NCBI GenBank assembly: GCA_951406725.2
Contig: OX597821.1
Coordinates: forward strand, 107,384,001 to 107,448,000
Direction of reading: 5' to 3'
Origin: Octopus vulgaris
Taxonomy: Eukaryota
Length of the DNA stretch: 64,000 nucleotides
Shown here piece after piece: positions 17,714-47,780 of the stretch (the first letter of the stretch is position 1; each line of letters opens with the position of its first letter). The notes beneath the pieces were generated by a model. It did no database searches and was not told the DNA's origin. It saw nothing but the letters and a program-made list of their open reading frames with translations. Made by a program: the position numbers and the translations under genes.

Positions 17714-17761
<48 letters not shown>

Positions 17762-17802
17762 ATAAGTCAAAATAGAAAATGCTAAAATAATTTTATAAAG
17801 AA

Positions 17803-17850
17803 CATTTCAGTACCGGTTTCAGTCATTTTGAGTCCTTTTCAACTGTAACG
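17803..17850 (-). ncRNA. Hammerhead-like motif, U3-A8 variant (stem II mismatch)
   Basis: Revcomp cgttacag-UUGAAAA-ggac..gact-GAAA-ccgg-UA-ctgaaatg. Confidence 0.6.
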
Positions 17851-18065
17851 ATTAAATAATTAAATTTAGAAAAATCAAAAGAAATGTTTTTTTAAAGGAA
17901 TATTTGTATAGTGTTCAAATATAAGTGGCATTTTCCTTGTTTCTGTGTGAACAAGAGACACAGAGCAAGGCAGAAACAAGGAAAATGCCACTTATATTTG
18001 AACACTATACAAATATTCCTTTAAAAAAACATTTCTTTTAATTTTTCTAAATTTAATTATTTAAT

Positions 18066-18113
18066 CGTTACAGTTGAAAAGGTCTCAAAATGACTGAAAC
18101 CGGTACTGAAATG
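18066..18113 (+). ncRNA. Hammerhead-like motif, U3-A8 variant
   Basis: cgttacag-UUGAAAA-ggtc-tcaaaat-gact-GAAA-ccgg-UA-ctgaaatg. Confidence 0.7.
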
Positions 18114-18203
18114 TTCTTTACAAAATTATTTTAGCATTTTCTATTTTTGACTTATTTTTTCATATATATCAACTCGTGTGTTCCCTTTTCATCCTTATAC
18201 ATA

Positions 18204-18381
<178 letters not shown>

Positions 18382-19365: not shown

Positions 19366-21030
19366 GATAGAAAAGTTCTTTTATTAGCCACACAGGGCCG
19401 AACACAGAGGGAACAAAATACAATGCAGAGCTGTTTTTTTCGAAAGAAAAAGAAGAGAATAGGAAATAGGGAGGAGAAAATAAATTTCCGATCAAAAGGG
19501 ATCGTGTATCACAGAAAAGATCAAAAATGTAAAAACAGATTATGTTTATCCATGGAAAGAAAAGCCTACTAAATAGACCGCGGTAACCTCGGGAGGGGAG
19601 GGGCAAAACACATGAGAGTAATGTGCTCTCTGTCTCTGTCTCTCTGTCTCTCTCTCTTCGATTTACAGAATCATGCTCAAAGTGGTTTCGTCATTCACCC
19701 ACCTTTTATCGAATCGTTCATGAGACAAAATTTGCCTCTCGATTCTCATCTTCCTTTTCAAGTGGTACTTTAAAAAGTTGATGGGCCACTGGCCAGACAG
19801 GAATGTGTTTGTCTTTAAACCTTTCGCTCGAGTCCACCACACACATTCTTTCACCATGGCCACCAGTAACGTGAAAACTAACTTGCCTTCCCGGTTGAGG
19901 AAAGGTGGTGGAGCAATTTTCACGATAGACTGGGCCGACAATCGAATTCGTCTCACACGCGATAACAGCTGTTCAGCATAAGCCCACAGGTCCAAAATCA
20001 TTGGACACTGCACGAGTGCGTGAAGAACGGTTTCGTCGCTCTTACAGCATCTCGGGTAGGTCGATCCGGTGTGTCTCGAACCGTGCCTGTAGAGATTATC
20101 CCAAACGGGCAGTGCTTCTCGATAGCACTGCCAGACCAGAGATCTATGGTGATTGTCCATAGGTCCCGGCCCGAACAGGTATTTTCCGTCGACGCCGCCC
20201 ATATTCTGCCCGAGAATGTCGTCGCACCTCCCCTCCACTAATCCTTTATAGAACGCCTTCGTGGAATTGAAGTCGCACAAGTTTGGTCCCTTGAGAGCAA
20301 GGCGGCACTCGCGGTGCCATTCGCTTAGCCTCGGTCTCTGTTTGAACCACTACTGGAGCCAAGGATTCGACCTGCAGGAAAGCGCGCCTCACAAACGGCA
20401 ACCATACCTGTTCACCGTCGTCTATGAAGCGCCGGAGATGTCGCAGTCTCAGCGCATGTCTGCGCATCATCAACCACGGCATGTCCAGCTCTCCATTTAG
20501 CGGATGTTGGCAGCAGATGGATCAACTAAGCATCGGAACGCTTCTCTTTCACAAAAAGCAGAAGTGCATGCGTTCCAGTTTGATGATGGTAGGGTCGGGA
20601 CAAGACACGATGGTCAGACGGTAATCGATGACGGATGCGATGTACGCGTTCGCCACCTCCGCCGACCGTTTAAGGATAGCTTTCTCTCGGTCCATTGCTG
20701 GGTGAGAGTGGACACTCTACTCGTTATCTCGTCCCAGTTCTCCATTTGGAGATCCGGACTGAACCAGACTCCGAGCAATTTAACCGGTCCATCAGTCCAG
20801 TGTCCCACGATGGAGACGCTGTTGAACGGCATAGGCTTACTTCTCTAGGTGCCGAACCACAAGCCCACTGACTTTTCCCAGTTAAATTTCGCTCCCGTTA
20901 CTGCTTCGCATTCTTTTAGTGTCTCGCCGACCAGGTCGATATGCCTGTAGCTTGACACTATCACAGTGGTGTATGCAGACACGCTCCTCCCGCATTCTAG
21001 TTCTCGCAGGATGCCCCTCAGTGTCTCCAG
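19366..21030 (-). mobile_element. 5'-truncated Tx1/L1-clade LINE (end of RT, zinc-binding C-terminus, 3' UTR)
   Basis: TGAKFNWEKS, VKLLGVWF, WTERKLSLNGR, YPRC..DETVLHALVQCP, KECVWWTR; frameshifts and stops; 3' end ccctgtgtggctaataaaag. Confidence 0.85.
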
Positions 21031-22578: not shown

Positions 22579-22653
<75 letters not shown>

Positions 22654-22701
22654 GAAAAAACAAGTCAAAAATAGAAAATGCTAAAATAATTTTATAGTGA
22701 A

Positions 22702-22749
22702 CATTTCAGTACCGGTTTCGGTCATTTTGAGACCTTTTCAACTGTAACG
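22702..22749 (-). ncRNA. Hammerhead-like motif, U3-A8 variant (best copy)
   Basis: Revcomp cgttacag-UUGAAAA-ggtc-tcaaaat-gacc-GAAA-ccgg-UA-ctgaaatg; perfect 4-bp stem II. Confidence 0.75.
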
Positions 22750-23474
22750 ATTAAATAATTAAATTTAGAAAAATTAGAAGAAAAGTTTTTTTAAAGGAAT
22801 ATTTCTATAGTAGTGTTCAGATATAAGTGGCATTCTGCCTTTCTCTGACTCCCTTGTTTGCACTTGTGTGTTGGAGGTCGTTGTGAGTTCTTGGTAGGGT
22901 AGTAGAAGAAGAAGGCTGATGAGGAAAGGGGGTGGGAAAATCTGGGAGTGCCCTGATGGTCGTATTTTGAATGGTCAGTGGCGGCTAGCAGTCGCAGTTC
23001 AATTCAGGAGAATATTTCTATTGAAAGGCTTGTTTATAGAATTTGCGTAGGTGTTATACTAAAAAACATTAGTGACAAAGTTAAGGGGTAGAAGGTGGAG
23101 AAGTAGAAGAAGAAGAAGAAGAAGAAGAAGAAGAAGAAGAAGAAGAAGAAGAAGAAGAAGAAGATGACGATGTTGATGATGATGATGATGAAGAAGAAGA
23201 AGAAGAAGAAGAAGGAGAAGATGACGATGATGATGATGGTGGTGATGATTATGACGACGATGATGATGATGATGATGATGATGAAGAAGAAGAGGAAGAA
23301 GAAGAAAAAAACAGAGAAGGGAGAATATGAATGGGTGAAAGTAGTGAGGTGTTGTATGACTTGAAGTTGGCATGTTGTGGATTATAGCTGTGATTTTAGC
23401 TGTGATTAGTAATGGATTCTTTGGAATGTAATATTTGTGTGTGTATATTTCTTTTATTCTAAAGTTGAGGTATA

Positions 23475-23801
23475 TTAATTGTTTGTCGTAGACCCGTTAA
23501 GAAGTGGCCTGTATTTTGTAATAAAGAGAGTTTCTTTACTTATTCGTTGTCTCGAGGTTGTATCGTCCCTAAATTGGTAGAGGGGGAAAATCCTGAAGCT
23601 TGGTGTTTTTTTGTTGGCGCAAGTATCTATGTGTTGGCTAAAAGCTATTTTTCTGTTTTGGGGAATTTTTATCTGGGATCTTTGCAGGGCCATTCGTTTA
23701 CGCAAACTATTTTTTGTTTGGCCTATGTACTGCTCTTGACACCCGGAGCAGGTTAGTGAGTATATTAGGTTCTCCGAAGCACATGTGAAGTTGCTTTTCA
23801 C
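23475..23801 (-). pseudogene. PLE GIY-YIG endonuclease domain (truncated ORF end)
   Basis: FTCASENLIYSLTCSGCQEQYIGQTKNSLRKRM...SQH...KETLFITKYRPLLN: LIY..CxxC..YIG, R, H, E, LN motifs. Confidence 0.9.
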
Positions 23802-23821
23802 TGTAAACCGTTGTTTACATA

Positions 23822-24031
23822 CTCTCTTCTACTCATTTACTTGTTTTAATCATTTGACTGTGGCCATGCAAGTCGACCCCAGTAGTTATTCTTTTGTAAG
23901 CCTAGTACTTATTCTATCGGCCTCGTTTGCCGAATCGTTAAATTACGGAGACTTATATACACCAGCATCGGTTGTCAAAAGATGATGGGGGTACAAACAC
24001 AGATACACAAACATATACACACACACACACA

Positions 24032-44615: not shown

Positions 44616-44711
44616 ATAAAACGGTAAGATAACAAAAGAAAGAAAGAGACCTCAATATTATGTAAATAGAGGAAATTTATCTATACAATATGTTACATTA
44701 CTCGGTAGTCA

Positions 44712-44774
44712 AGATAAAACTCTGAGTTTCAGATGCCGAAGTGGAAATCCACAACACCATCTCTTCGGTTATCT
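44712..44774 (-). ncRNA. Hammerhead-like motif (U4C), left-arm copy
   Basis: Reverse complement of 47628-47690. Confidence 0.65.
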
Positions 44775-45626
44775 GGCTATTTGAAAACGTTATGAAAAAA
44801 TACCGTTAAAAATGAAGGGAAATTACTCTGTTATAACTCTGCTTTGCCTGCGTACTTATACATCGCTCGCATTTTTCGTCATAAAAATTATATAAAAATA
44901 CATAAAATATATATAAAAATATATAAAAATATATAAAATCTTCTTGGGACATAACACAGAAAGCATGTTCTATCCGTTTTCTTTAGGGGACCAAAAACGT
45001 AACAGAAATTTAGTCACATGTGGGCATGATCCGAAAAGCTCTGTCCTTGTATTTAGACATGTGGTAGGGTCTAAGCTGCTTTTCCAGATAAGCCATCTCT
45101 CCATGTCGCATAAACCGCACCTTCCGCTGCCGTTAGTATAGGGCTTACATCTGGCCAAAATCTTCCATTGTATGTTATAATCGACACCTTTATCTCTTAA
45201 AGACCAAATATGATTGGATAATTGTGTCGCTTTTCTTTTGTTCCAGTGCCTAAAGCTCAAAGTGTGGTTATTGAACCTGGCCTTGAAATTACCCTCTGTC
45301 AGGCCCACGTATTTCTTCGTCAAAAACGGTGTCTTTAGTGGTTATAGAGTTTACGGTAGCTCATATATGATGGTCTTGGACATGCAAGCTCCATTTAGCG
45401 GGCACAATTCTTTATTCCTGCATGAACAGCTGTTTTCTTCTTGTGTTTTTTGTATGTTATGATTGATTATGTTTTTAAAATTGGTAGTTGAACTAAAACT
45501 AATTTTTAAATTGTGTCTATTGAAGAGTTTCCTATAAGCATGGTTAACTGGAAAATGTCTATCTATCAGTGCTAGGAAATATTTACCTATATTGAAGGCC
45601 ACCTCGGGTGAGTAAGGGGGCGTAAG

Positions 45627-47432
45627 AAAAAAGCACTTTTTTCGGATAAAACCAAGAACTTATACCTGGTAGATAACAGCAAATACACACAACTCTTACA
45701 CAACAGCATCATTAATAATTATACTAAGGCTAGGGCACAGACATATAACGAAATTAATAAAGAAGCTAGCGTCATCGCCGCTAAACTTAAATTAGATAAA
45801 AAAATAGAAACCCTCCCCCAAAAAGAGGCCTTTATTACTATTAAAGACCACAAAGAAAACTTCCTTTCCAATCCTAAATGTAGGCTTATCAACCCAGCCA
45901 AGTCAGAACTAGGGATTATTAGCAAAGAAATTTTAGATAAAATAAATACGAAAATTAAGACCGATACTAGGCTAGTGCAATGGTCCAATAGTATAGAAGT
46001 CGTAGACTGGTTTAAAGCTATTAAGAATAAGAAAAAAGCGAGGTTTACACAATTCGATATTGTTGATTTTTATGCCTCTATCTCTAAAGAACTGCTAGAT
46101 AAAGCCCTAATCTTCGCTAGTGACTTCATAGAAATTAGTACCAATGATAAGGATATAATCTTCCATGCTAGAAAGACATTACTTTTCAGTGAGAATGCAA
46201 AGTGGGTAAAAAACACCGACACGGAGGGCGCTTTCGATGTGAGCATGGGTTCATATGATGGGGCAGGCATCTGTGATCTAATTGGACTCTTTCTCCTAGA
46301 TACCTTCAGTAAGACATTCCCTAACGTACATTTCGCCATCTACAAAGATGATGCCCTCGCCTTAACAGCTAATACAAATGGACCAGCACAAGATCGTTTT
46401 AGGAAGGATATTATCCAGTTAATGAAACACTTCGGACTTAGTATAACTATAGACACTAACCTGACGGTTGTCAATTTCTTAGACGTTTCCTTAGATCTTA
46501 ATAATAATATTTATAAGCCTTATAGGAAGCCCAATGATAGACTAAGTTATATTAATGTAGGTTCATGCCATCCCCCTATAGTATTCAAAAATTTAGTTAA
46601 AAATATTAGTAAGAGGATTTCTAGCCTCTCATCTAATGAGGACATCTTCAATAGCGTTGCCCCAGTTTATAATAAAGCTTTAAAAGATAGTGGTTTTAGC
46701 GAAAAAATAAAATATACACCTATCACCAGCCCAACAATAAGGAAAAGGAATAATAGAAATAGGAAGGTCATCTGGTTTACGCCCCCTTACTCACCCGAGG
46801 TGGCCTTCAATATAGGTAAATATTTCCTAGCACTGATAGATAGACATTTTCCAGTTAACCATGCTTATAGGAAACTCTTCAATAGACACAATTTAAAAAT
46901 TAGTTTTAGTTCAACTACCAATTTTAAAAACATAATCAATCATAACATACAAAAAACACAAGAAGAAAACAGCTGTTCATGCAGGAATAAAGAATTGTGC
47001 CCGCTAAATGGAGCTTGCATGTCCAAGACCATCATATATGAGGCTACCGTAAACTCTATAACCACTAAAGACACCGTTTTGACGAAGAAATACGTGGGCC
47101 TGACAGAGGGTAATTTCAAGGCCAGGTTCAATAACCACACTTTGAGCTTTAGGCACTGGAACAAAAGAAAAGCGACACAATTATCCAATCATATTTGGTC
47201 TTTAAGAGATAAAGGTGTCGATTATAACATACAATGGAAGATTTTGGCCAGATGTAAGCCCTATACTAACGGCAGCGGAAGGTGCGGTTTATGCGACATG
47301 GAGAGATGGCTTATCTGGAAAAGCAGCTTAGACCCTACCACATGTCTAAATACAAGGACAGAACTTTTCGGATCATGCCCACATGTGACTAAATTTCTGT
47401 TACGTTTTTGGTCCCCTAAAGAAAACGGATAG
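45627..47432 (+). CDS. Penelope-like reverse transcriptase + C-terminal GIY-YIG-type endonuclease (5'-truncated, Hydra-clade-like)
   Basis: The frame is open upstream of the called GTG at 45975 (SDKTKNLY, KDHKENF, CRLINPAKSELG). RT motifs FDIVDFYASI, MGSYDGA, YKDD, NFLDV; linker CSCRNKELCPLNGAC; EN IIYEATV..KYVGLT..FKARFNNH..CGLC. Confidence 0.92.
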   Translation, partial: KKALFSDKTKNLYLVDNSKYTQLLHNSIINNYTKARAQTYNEINKEASVIAAKLKLDKKIETLPQKEAFITIKDHKENFLSNPKCRLINPAKSELGIISKEILDKINTKIKTDTRLVQWSNSIEVVDWFKAIKNKKKARFTQFDIVDFYASISKELLDKALIFASDFIEISTNDKDIIFHARKTLLFSENAKWVKNTDTEGAFDVSMGSYDGAGICDLIGLFLLDTFSKTFPNVHFAIYKDDALALTANTNGPAQDRFRKDIIQLMKHFGLSITIDTNLTVVNFLDVSLDLNNNIYKPYRKPNDRLSYINVGSCHPPIVFKNLVKNISKRISSLSSNEDIFNSVAPVYNKALKDSGFSEKIKYTPITSPTIRKRNNRNRKVIWFTPPYSPEVAFNIGKYFLALIDRHFPVNHAYRKLFNRHNLKISFSSTTNFKNIINHNIQKTQEENSCSCRNKELCPLNGACMSKTIIYEATVNSITTKDTVLTKKYVGLTEGNFKARFNNHTLSFRHWNKRKATQLSNHIWSLRDKGVDYNIQWKILARCKPYTNGSGRCGLCDMERWLIWKSSLDPTTCLNTRTELFGSCPHVTKFLLRFWSPKENG

Positions 47433-47627
47433 AACATGCTTTCTGTGTTATGTCCCAAGAAGATTTTATATATTTTTATATATTTTTATATATTTTTTAT
47501 GTATTTTTATATAATTTTTATGACGAAAAATGCGAGCGATGTATAAGTACGCAGGCAAAGCAGAGTTATAACAGAGTAATTTCCCTTCATTTTTAACGGT
47601 ATTTTTTCATAACGTTTTCAAATAGCC

Positions 47628-47690
47628 AGATAACCGAAGAGATGGTGTTGTGGATTTCCACTTCGGCATCTGAAACTCAGAGTTTTATCT
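47628..47690 (+). ncRNA. Hammerhead-like motif (U4C) in PLE 3' UTR
   Basis: agataa-CCGAAGA-gatg..gtgga/tccac..catc-t-GAAA-ctcagag-UU-ttatct: perfect 6-bp stem I, GUU site. Confidence 0.68.
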
Positions 47691-47712
47691 TGACTACCGA
47701 GTAATGTAACAT

Positions 47713-47780
<68 letters not shown>

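What the first reader, a model, noticed from the sequence alone, without database searches (positions are those of the whole stretch)
22702..22749. PLE hammerhead with compensatory U3-A8 core swap (UUGAAAA instead of CUGANGA), three copies
Seen: cgttacag-UUGAAAA-ggtc-tcaaaat-gacc-GAAA-ccgg-UA-ctgaaatg downstream of the GIY-YIG ORF, and again at 17803-17850 (-) and 18066-18113 (+). Stem I pairs 7 of 8 positions, stem II is 4 bp, and stem III is the palindrome ACCGGU with a GUA site. Established: C3 and G8 form a Watson-Crick pair in the active hammerhead, U3-A8 is a rare tolerated variant, and PLE minimal hammerheads with palindromic stem III cleave as dimers. Inference: the double change shared by all three copies is selected rather than decay, and standard CUGANGA searches would miss it.
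Basis: partly seen in the sequence, partly recalled or inferred. Interest (0 to 1): 0.75.

Follow-up and report, generated by a model that had tools for sequence, protein, structure and literature searches.

The report
Variant hammerhead in a Penelope retrotransposon
This is a small hammerhead-type RNA motif with an already known paired core change, carried by thousands of copies of a young jumping gene, and rare copies fused to other RNAs exactly at its predicted cut site show that it very likely cuts in living cells and likely gets re-joined before being copied into DNA.

Summary
The motif is real. It is the type I hammerhead in the pseudo-LTR of a young Penelope-like element (PLE): at least 2,930 pattern hits, intact RT + GIY-YIG copies, 4.3-4.4 kb tandem unit. 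U3-A8 is the master state (1993 of 2004 young copies). The three window copies are two insertions, so they do not test selection. Three sister PLE families (50-61% amino-acid identity) keep U3-A8 with different stems, which does. U3-A8 is not new: it is published as a natural variant (2011) and in Schistosoma PLEs (2014). The useful addition is a genomic record of cleavage. Of 15 insertions that begin exactly at the predicted cut, 5 are fused to another hammerhead ending at its own GUC site; others are fused to 18S rRNA, SINE or the element's own RNA. Control positions gave no such hammerhead fusion. Likely cause: cleavage, then RtcB-type ligation, normally closing a circular template; an RT end-jump is the rival. 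Against strict selection: U3·G8 and C3·A8 retrozyme subfamilies also multiplied. The scan already noted U3-A8 hammerheads elsewhere, including this genome, and U6 fusions at PLE cut sites in another genome. No bench or raw-read data.

The parts
22702..22749 (-). Type I hammerhead, U3-A8 core, G10.1-C11.1, palindromic stem III; predicted cut between 22710 (A17) and 22709
22645..23814 (-). 5'-truncated PLE copy: end of ORF2, 3' UTR, hammerhead, about 60 nt past the cut, ending in (TA)n
   Evidence: blastn to full unit L084, 86% over 1215 columns
23475..23825 (-). GIY-YIG endonuclease remnant, 116 codons plus stop; residues 5-116 are 95-99% identical to other genomic copies
17750..17945 (-). Left arm of an inverted PLE insertion, ending at the near end point (+64 from the cut)
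17803..17850 (-). Hammerhead copy, U3-A8, stem II with G-U closing pair and one A-A mismatch; cut between 17811 and 17810
17950..18204 (+). Right arm of the same insertion, ending at the far end point (+98; includes the 34-nt tail)
18066..18113 (+). Hammerhead copy, U3-A8, G-U closing pair of stem II; cut between 18105 and 18106

Best explanation
The motif is the pseudo-LTR hammerhead of a young Penelope-like retrotransposon, with U3-A8 as its master core; it very likely cuts the element's RNA after GUA in cells, and the cut ends are likely re-joined by an RtcB-type ligase before reverse transcription. Shown: motif, family, master state, tandem layout with hammerheads 4.33-4.41 kb apart, two 3' end points 64 and 98 nt past the cut, and fusions at the cut. 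Inferred (about 0.9): cleavage at GUA|C. Inferred (about 0.6): two hammerheads pair through ACCGGU, perhaps helped by the element's protein. Inferred (about 0.55): the released unit-length RNA (5'-OH, 2',3'-cyclic phosphate) is normally closed into a circle. RT would start at +64/+98, run back across the re-made junction and round the circle, giving pLTRs and partial tandems. Occasionally the 5'-OH end would be joined to a wrong partner (retrozyme 5' fragment, rRNA, SINE, broken own RNA), and that fusion is what was inserted.
For: Master state: 1993 of 2004 young copies are U3-A8. In a sample chosen by a tag outside the ribozyme, U3 is 75/75 and A8 74/75 (75 of 92 kept); 0 of 12 core columns carry shared variants against 17 of 52 flank columns, which are not independent. 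Retention: sister PLE families at 61%, 51-56% and about 50% identity keep U3-A8 with different stems I, II, III and N7. One retrozyme group has both C3-G8 and U3-A8 multi-copy forms on the same stems. Cleavage record: 18 of 40 rows (15 events) beginning at +1 have foreign upstream sequence. Five events are another hammerhead ending at its own GUC, offset 0 in a scan of offsets -6 to +6 over all loci held. For the partner family checked, 0 of 30 native copies continue with the PLE sequence. Other partners: 18S rRNA (55.7 bits, above the gathering score), a SINE, and the element's own ORF1 RNA, all sense. L458 holds a head-to-tail repeat of nt +1 to +445. No crossover at the shared GAAAC: 0 of 29. 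Literature: U3-A8 hammerheads are active in vitro (PMC3088659); RtcB circularises cut retrozyme RNA (PMC7229834) and makes U6/L1 chimeras before retrotransposition (PMC6789731).
Against: No biochemical data and no raw RNA reads. In its natural flanks the hammerhead fold is not favoured by ViennaRNA (stem II about 0.1, stem I 0.02 or less). The peak of 5' ends is not sharp: +2 has 16 foreign rows of 84, as many as +1; +4 has 7 of 99; -13 has 4 of 99; -5 has 1 of 50, so part could be RT stalling at the stem. Hammerhead-to-hammerhead junctions share one C, so they are placed to within 1 nt; the SINE junction has one unexplained base. Mismatched cores do spread in retrozymes: a U3·G8 family (about 47 of the first 100 rows) and a C3·A8 subfamily with tandems (about 12 of 100). 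7 of 100 older copies have A10.1·C11.1, and 3 of them examined share upstream changes. For the anole PLE, cleavage was not needed for insertion in vitro and no RNA reads began at the site (PMC11167929). Fusions show that cut RNA exists, not that normal copies come from circles.
Confidence: 0.6

Rival explanations
1. The hammerhead cuts, but no ligase is involved: the RT runs off the cut 5' end and jumps end-to-end onto the 3' end of the same or another RNA.
For: Gives the same DNA products; many 5' ends fall at +2 to +4; one extra base at the SINE junction. End-to-end jumping is known for R2-type RTs (recalled, no call).
Against: All five hammerhead fusions have no added base, occur only at offset 0, and involve ends with the chemistry RtcB needs. 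In L388/389, L391 and L402 both arms carry the same junction, which fits a fused template but also fold-back copying.
Confidence: 0.25
2. The hammerhead cuts and is sometimes ligated, but this is a side path; normal insertions use uncut tandem read-through RNA, and the ribozyme serves 5' processing or turnover, or rides along.
For: Anole PLE inserts from uncut RNA in vitro (PMC11167929); Naiads spread without canonical hammerheads (PMC8557442); mismatched-core retrozymes multiplied; most copies read straight through the site.
Against: Core and 3-8 pair are kept across PLE families of 50-61% identity. Solo 5'-truncated copies still carry 64-98 nt past the cut, which a circle explains directly.
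Confidence: 0.3
3. The motif is an inactive relic; U3-A8 drifted in with a successful master, and the junctions come from RT stalling plus microhomology.
For: Weak predicted folding in context; broad spread of 5' ends just past the site; 2 of 15 events have SINE microhomology and 2 are inverted-arm junctions.
Against: Does not explain five fusions in which both partners end at their own hammerhead sites, with 0 of 29 at the longer shared GAAAC, nor retention of U3-A8 on unrelated stems.
Confidence: 0.06

Closest known systems
U3-A8 minimal hammerheads of Cercyon PLEs in Schistosoma mansoni (Cervera and de la Pena 2014, PMC4209133; read parts 1-2 of 4, searched 2 supplement files, file 1 not searchable)
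   Same: Type I hammerhead in PLE pseudo-LTRs, U3-A8 core, over a thousand mostly single copies, close inverted pairs; circle model proposed there.
   Different: Here stem II is 4 bp with no extra nucleotide after A9, and stem III is a 6-nt palindrome like their fly, rotifer and shrimp variants. U3-A8 spans several families. Fusions at the cut site were not in the parts read.
Natural U3-A8 core covariation (Perreault et al. 2011, PMC3088659; passages)
   Same: Same paired change, stated to be active in vitro (the cited study was not read).
   Different: Rare there; here 5834 descriptor hits against 582 for C3-G8.
Poseidon PLE of Anolis (Frangieh et al. 2024, PMC11167929; parts 1-2 of 4)
   Same: Two RT start sites past the hammerhead that define a 30-40 nt tail (34 nt here); AT-rich targets.
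   Different: Canonical C3-G8 core, no RT-EN zinc linker mentioned, ribozyme overlaps the ORF start; no in vivo sign of cleavage found there.
U6/LINE-1 chimeras made by RtcB (Moldovan et al. 2019, PMC6789731; abstract and outline) and RtcB-circularised retrozymes (PMC7229834; passages)
   Same: A cyclic-phosphate end joined to a 5'-OH end, then retrotransposed.
   Different: Here the 5'-OH end maps to a ribozyme site and five partners are themselves ribozyme fragments; ligation is inferred, not shown.

Membership tests
Type I hammerhead ribozyme | Core N3-UGA-N7-N8-A, GAAA, NUH with a Watson-Crick 3-8 pair | tested here: met
   U3-A8, all other core positions canonical
Type I hammerhead ribozyme | Stems I and II flank the core, ends in stem I | tested here: met
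   isolated 48-mer folds stems I and II at -9.1 kcal/mol; closing pair G-C, G-U or A-U between subfamilies
Type I hammerhead ribozyme | Self-cleavage after NUH in vitro | not testable with these tools
   needs bench work
Type I hammerhead ribozyme | RNA ends at the predicted site (indirect, from DNA copies) | tested here: met
   5 hammerhead-to-hammerhead fusions at offset 0, plus rRNA, SINE and own-RNA fusions
PLE hammerhead with short palindromic helix III | Palindromic stem III, unstable as a monomer | tested here: met
   ACCGGU; self-duplex -8.3 kcal/mol; sister families use other palindromes
PLE hammerhead with short palindromic helix III | Located in both pLTRs, sense to the ORF | tested here: met
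   6 of 18 element loci, some chosen for tandem hits, have two same-strand copies 4334-4412 nt apart
PLE hammerhead with short palindromic helix III | Cleaves as a dimer | not testable with these tools
   no assay
min-HHR consensus of Cervera 2014 (no helix III, extra nucleotide after A9) | Unpaired nucleotide between A9 and 10.1, long helix II | tested here: not met
   A9 is followed directly by a 4-bp stem II; not filed under this subtype
EN+ Penelope-like element | RT and C-terminal GIY-YIG in one reading frame | tested here: met
   784-codon frame: RVT_1 E 3.5e-8, GIY-YIG E 3.8e-4 (just below cut-off), DKG motif
EN+ Penelope-like element | Partial tandems, inverted 5'-truncated copy, 30-40 nt tail | tested here: met
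   63 short, 28 long and 1 read-through end among 92 copies
Neptune/Nematis clades | CX2-5CxxC linker between RT and EN | tested here: met
   residues 650-658; feature from PMC8557442
Neptune/Nematis clades | Placement in an RT tree with reference elements | not tested
   no named reference sequences were available among the hits

The most novel reading that the evidence does not exclude
Penelope-like elements replicate through a hammerhead-cut, host-ligase-closed RNA circle, and this genome preserves the mis-ligations: the PLE's cut 5' end joined to the cut 3' ends of retrozymes, rRNA, SINE RNA and its own fragments, including a mini-circle copied more than once round. PLEs and their retrozymes share one pool of cut ends, and U3-A8, not C3-G8, is the prevailing working core here, reached through wobble or mismatch intermediates that still transposed.
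Probability: 0.4. Interest if true: 0.75.

Novelty: new member of a known kind. Interest (0 to 1): 0.5.

Why it matters
Whether the weak PLE hammerheads cut in vivo, and whether PLE RNA is circularised, is open: proposed in 2014, not seen in the 2024 reconstitution. Fusions at the cut site are a cheap genomic read-out that can be mined in any PLE-rich assembly, and here they indicate that a U3-A8 core works in cells. The family has many intact copies, so it is a practical test system. Practically, CUGANGA-only searches would miss most hammerheads of this shape in this genome (5834 versus 582 descriptor hits).

Tried and rejected
DNA search of G000 with the motif region returned nothing because common words are skipped; patterns were used instead. 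Rfam listed no hammerhead in the rows shown. No RNA holder is listed on record and all runs were contigs, so starts, ends and expression could not be read; no spliced joint at the ORF1/ORF2 overlap was listed. C3-G8 copies inside the family (1 young, 2 older; 0.35 expected; P about 0.006) were considered as proof of selection and set aside: they are single copies, and in L035 the other arm of the same insertion is U3-A8. Forty loci with C3-G8 or C3·A8 motifs were fetched to find an outgroup PLE; none of their C3-G8 motifs could be tied to an ORF with confidence, so the direction of the change is not established. The C3-G8 family with the same stem III (76 hits) has no PLE ORF in 29 of 30 loci and is not shown to be related. 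L380's partner looked like U2 snRNA from recall; Rfam did not confirm it, so it is left unassigned. Insertion into a genomic retrozyme was rejected for L381, L388 and L402: blast to reference monomers finds only the partner's 5' part at the junction; L391 and L435 had no reference. Partners ending in GUA are invisible to the junction patterns. Lunse et al. 2017 is not held and may describe U3-A8 PLE variants or their activity.

Full report
Observation. The three motifs are present as described. The main copy (22702-22749, minus) has stem I 7 of 8, core UUGAAAA, 4-bp stem II, GAAA, ACCGGU and GUA; the cut would fall between 22710 and 22709. The other two differ in stem II and are the two arms of one inverted insertion. 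A loose descriptor finds these 3 against 0.37 per shuffled window. The window lies in a 2.8-Gb assembly of 227 contigs; earlier notes call it octopus-like, which I did not test.

The element. The GIY-YIG remnant has 150 scored matches at 95-100% identity among 17,982 candidates, many in 784-codon open frames. Of 20 loci of 9.9 kb, 18 were element loci; 6 of these have two same-strand hammerheads 4334-4412 nt apart (some were chosen for tandem hits), and 10 have an inverted copy. The unit is: cut site, short leader, ORF1 (411 codons from the first AUG), ORF2 overlapping by 64 nt in the -1 frame (RT, CX4CxxC linker, GIY-YIG), about 700 nt of 3' UTR, hammerhead. Copies end 64 or 98 nt past the cut in (TA)n (63 short, 28 long, 1 read-through of 92). 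This matches the two RT start sites and tail of the anole PLE (PMC11167929, parts 1-2 read). Homologues at 43-61% identity are numerous and mostly unnamed.

Is U3-A8 the family state? Yes. With positions 3, 7 and 8 free, 2004 copies match (control 0); 6 lack U3 and 5 more lack A8, leaving 1993. An older subfamily (926 hits; A-U closing pair, shorter loop) has U3 in 99 of the first 100 rows; its single changes number 15 (C3·A8) and 17 (U3·G8), doubles 2-3. In 92 copies chosen by a downstream tag, 17 were dropped as truncated or too divergent; of 75, U3 is invariant and A8 is 74/75. Contigs of four public runs under three organism labels list no variant at these two places at 1% or more.

Is it selected? 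Copy number cannot say. A generic descriptor (G/C at 10.1 and 11.1, so it omits A-U and G-U closed forms and long loops) gives U3-A8 5834 (control 225), C3-G8 582 (170), U3·G8 487 (196), C3·A8 258 (137). The U3-A8 rows fall into at least six sequence-distinct families with paired stems, palindromic stem III and free N7. Three lie downstream of related PLE ORFs at 61%, 51-56% and about 50% identity; others are retrozyme-like repeats, one a 362-nt tandem. One retrozyme group has C3-G8, C3·A8 and U3-A8 forms on the same stems. So the pair is kept over long times and swaps as a pair, which supports selection. Against strictness: the U3·G8 retrozyme family and the C3·A8 subfamily multiplied, and 7 of 100 older PLE copies have A10.1·C11.1 (counts by eye). 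The direction of change was not established.

Does it cut? I looked for copies that begin at the predicted cut. One search gave 40 rows: 34 read in full loci, 6 judged from the 11 bases shown. Eighteen rows keep the core upstream (point changes), 4 are internal deletions, 18 (15 events) have foreign upstream sequence. Five events are another hammerhead ending at its own GUC (L381, L388/389, L391, L402, L435); a scripted scan of all loci held finds such partners only at offset 0 of -6 to +6. For the family of L381 and L388 (533 hits) none of 30 native copies continues with the PLE sequence. One event is sense 18S rRNA, one a sense SINE with one unexplained base, one the element's own ORF1 RNA; 2 are inverted arms, 2 SINE microhomology, 3 unassigned. 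Among rows with a chance A before the site are two more own-RNA joins (L455, L458), L458 being +1 to +445 joined back to +1. Controls, foreign rows by eye: -13, 4 of 99; -5, 1 of 50; -2, 6 of 71; -1, 8 of 80; +2, 16 of 84; +4, 7 of 99. Most of these were fetched (not four (TA)n rows at -2) and none is a hammerhead partner. Crossover at the five shared bases GAAAC, which would have been visible for all five partners, gave 0 of 29. The density of 5' ends alone is only suggestive; the double-ended fusions are the strong evidence.

Mechanism. Hammerheads leave a 5'-OH and a cyclic phosphate (established knowledge). RtcB joins such ends: it circularises cut retrozymes (PMC7229834, passages) and forms U6/L1 RNA before retrotransposition (PMC6789731, abstract). 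I therefore favour cut, ligation, then reverse transcription from +64/+98 across the junction. Self-closure would rebuild the hammerhead and give pLTRs, as proposed in PMC4209133. RT end-jumping, or cleavage as a side path, remain open; the anole work found cleavage protein-assisted and dispensable in vitro. Poor predicted folding in context fits a slow, assisted ribozyme.

Prior art. U3-A8 is published as natural and active (PMC3088659, passages) and in S. mansoni PLEs with about 1,300 hits (PMC4209133). A search for Penelope-like + hammerhead + octopus gave one paper (passages read). Searches for cut-site chimeras gave no direct report (the 'chimer' passages of two of the four papers were looked up). 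Lunse 2017 and most subscription papers could not be searched, nor supplement file 1 of PMC4209133 or bioRxiv supplements. This scan has noted U3-A8 hammerheads several times, including a retrozyme in this genome, and U6 fused at PLE cut sites in another genome (seen after my junction result); these notes are not independent support.

Verdict. Observation confirmed, interpretation supported on better grounds, novelty of the core variant low. It is a new member of a known kind, with useful indirect evidence of in vivo cleavage and end-joining. Interest 0.5.

Noticed in passing
L084:5462-5525 (full-length unit): ORF1 and ORF2 overlap in the -1 frame around T TTT TTA, a classic slippery heptamer (recalled), kept in 19 of 19 matches and in the 61%-identical sister family. 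No stable downstream hairpin is predicted; the site also reads like a 3' splice acceptor, but no spliced contig was listed.
   Followed up: partly
G000, rows (e.g. C1:11159842, C3:86359244): A retrozyme-like family with U3·G8 wobble as master core, about 47 of the first 100 rows, some in tandems about 357 nt apart.
   Followed up: no
L342, L341, L294, L296: One retrozyme group shows C3·A8, C3-G8 and U3-A8 cores on the same stems, a possible stepwise path.
   Followed up: partly
window 44675-47727: A second, unrelated PLE insertion with inverted arms: 606-codon RT + GIY-YIG-like frame at 45612-47432; its 3' end near 47625-47690 has hammerhead-like words in a fold I did not resolve.
   Followed up: no
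L253-L282: A C3-G8 hammerhead family (76 hits) with the same ACCGGU stem III and GUA site, long loop II, G-U covariation in stem I, and no ORF nearby in 29 of 30 loci.
   Followed up: partly
L310: A further U3-A8 motif downstream of a PLE endonuclease only 34% identical to ORF2; single locus.
   Followed up: no
L458: Head-to-tail repeat of element nt +1 to +445, as expected from a small circular RNA closed at the cut end.
   Followed up: partly
L469: A family copy starting near -13 is joined to sequence resembling the 3' region of the second PLE family seen in the window.
   Followed up: no
window 19666-20349 (-): Remnant of a non-LTR retrotransposon with a zf-RVT match.
   Followed up: no
L095, L107, L117: Small older subfamily with an A10.1·C11.1 mismatch closing stem II; the C3-G8 family shows the same mismatch in several copies.
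   Followed up: no
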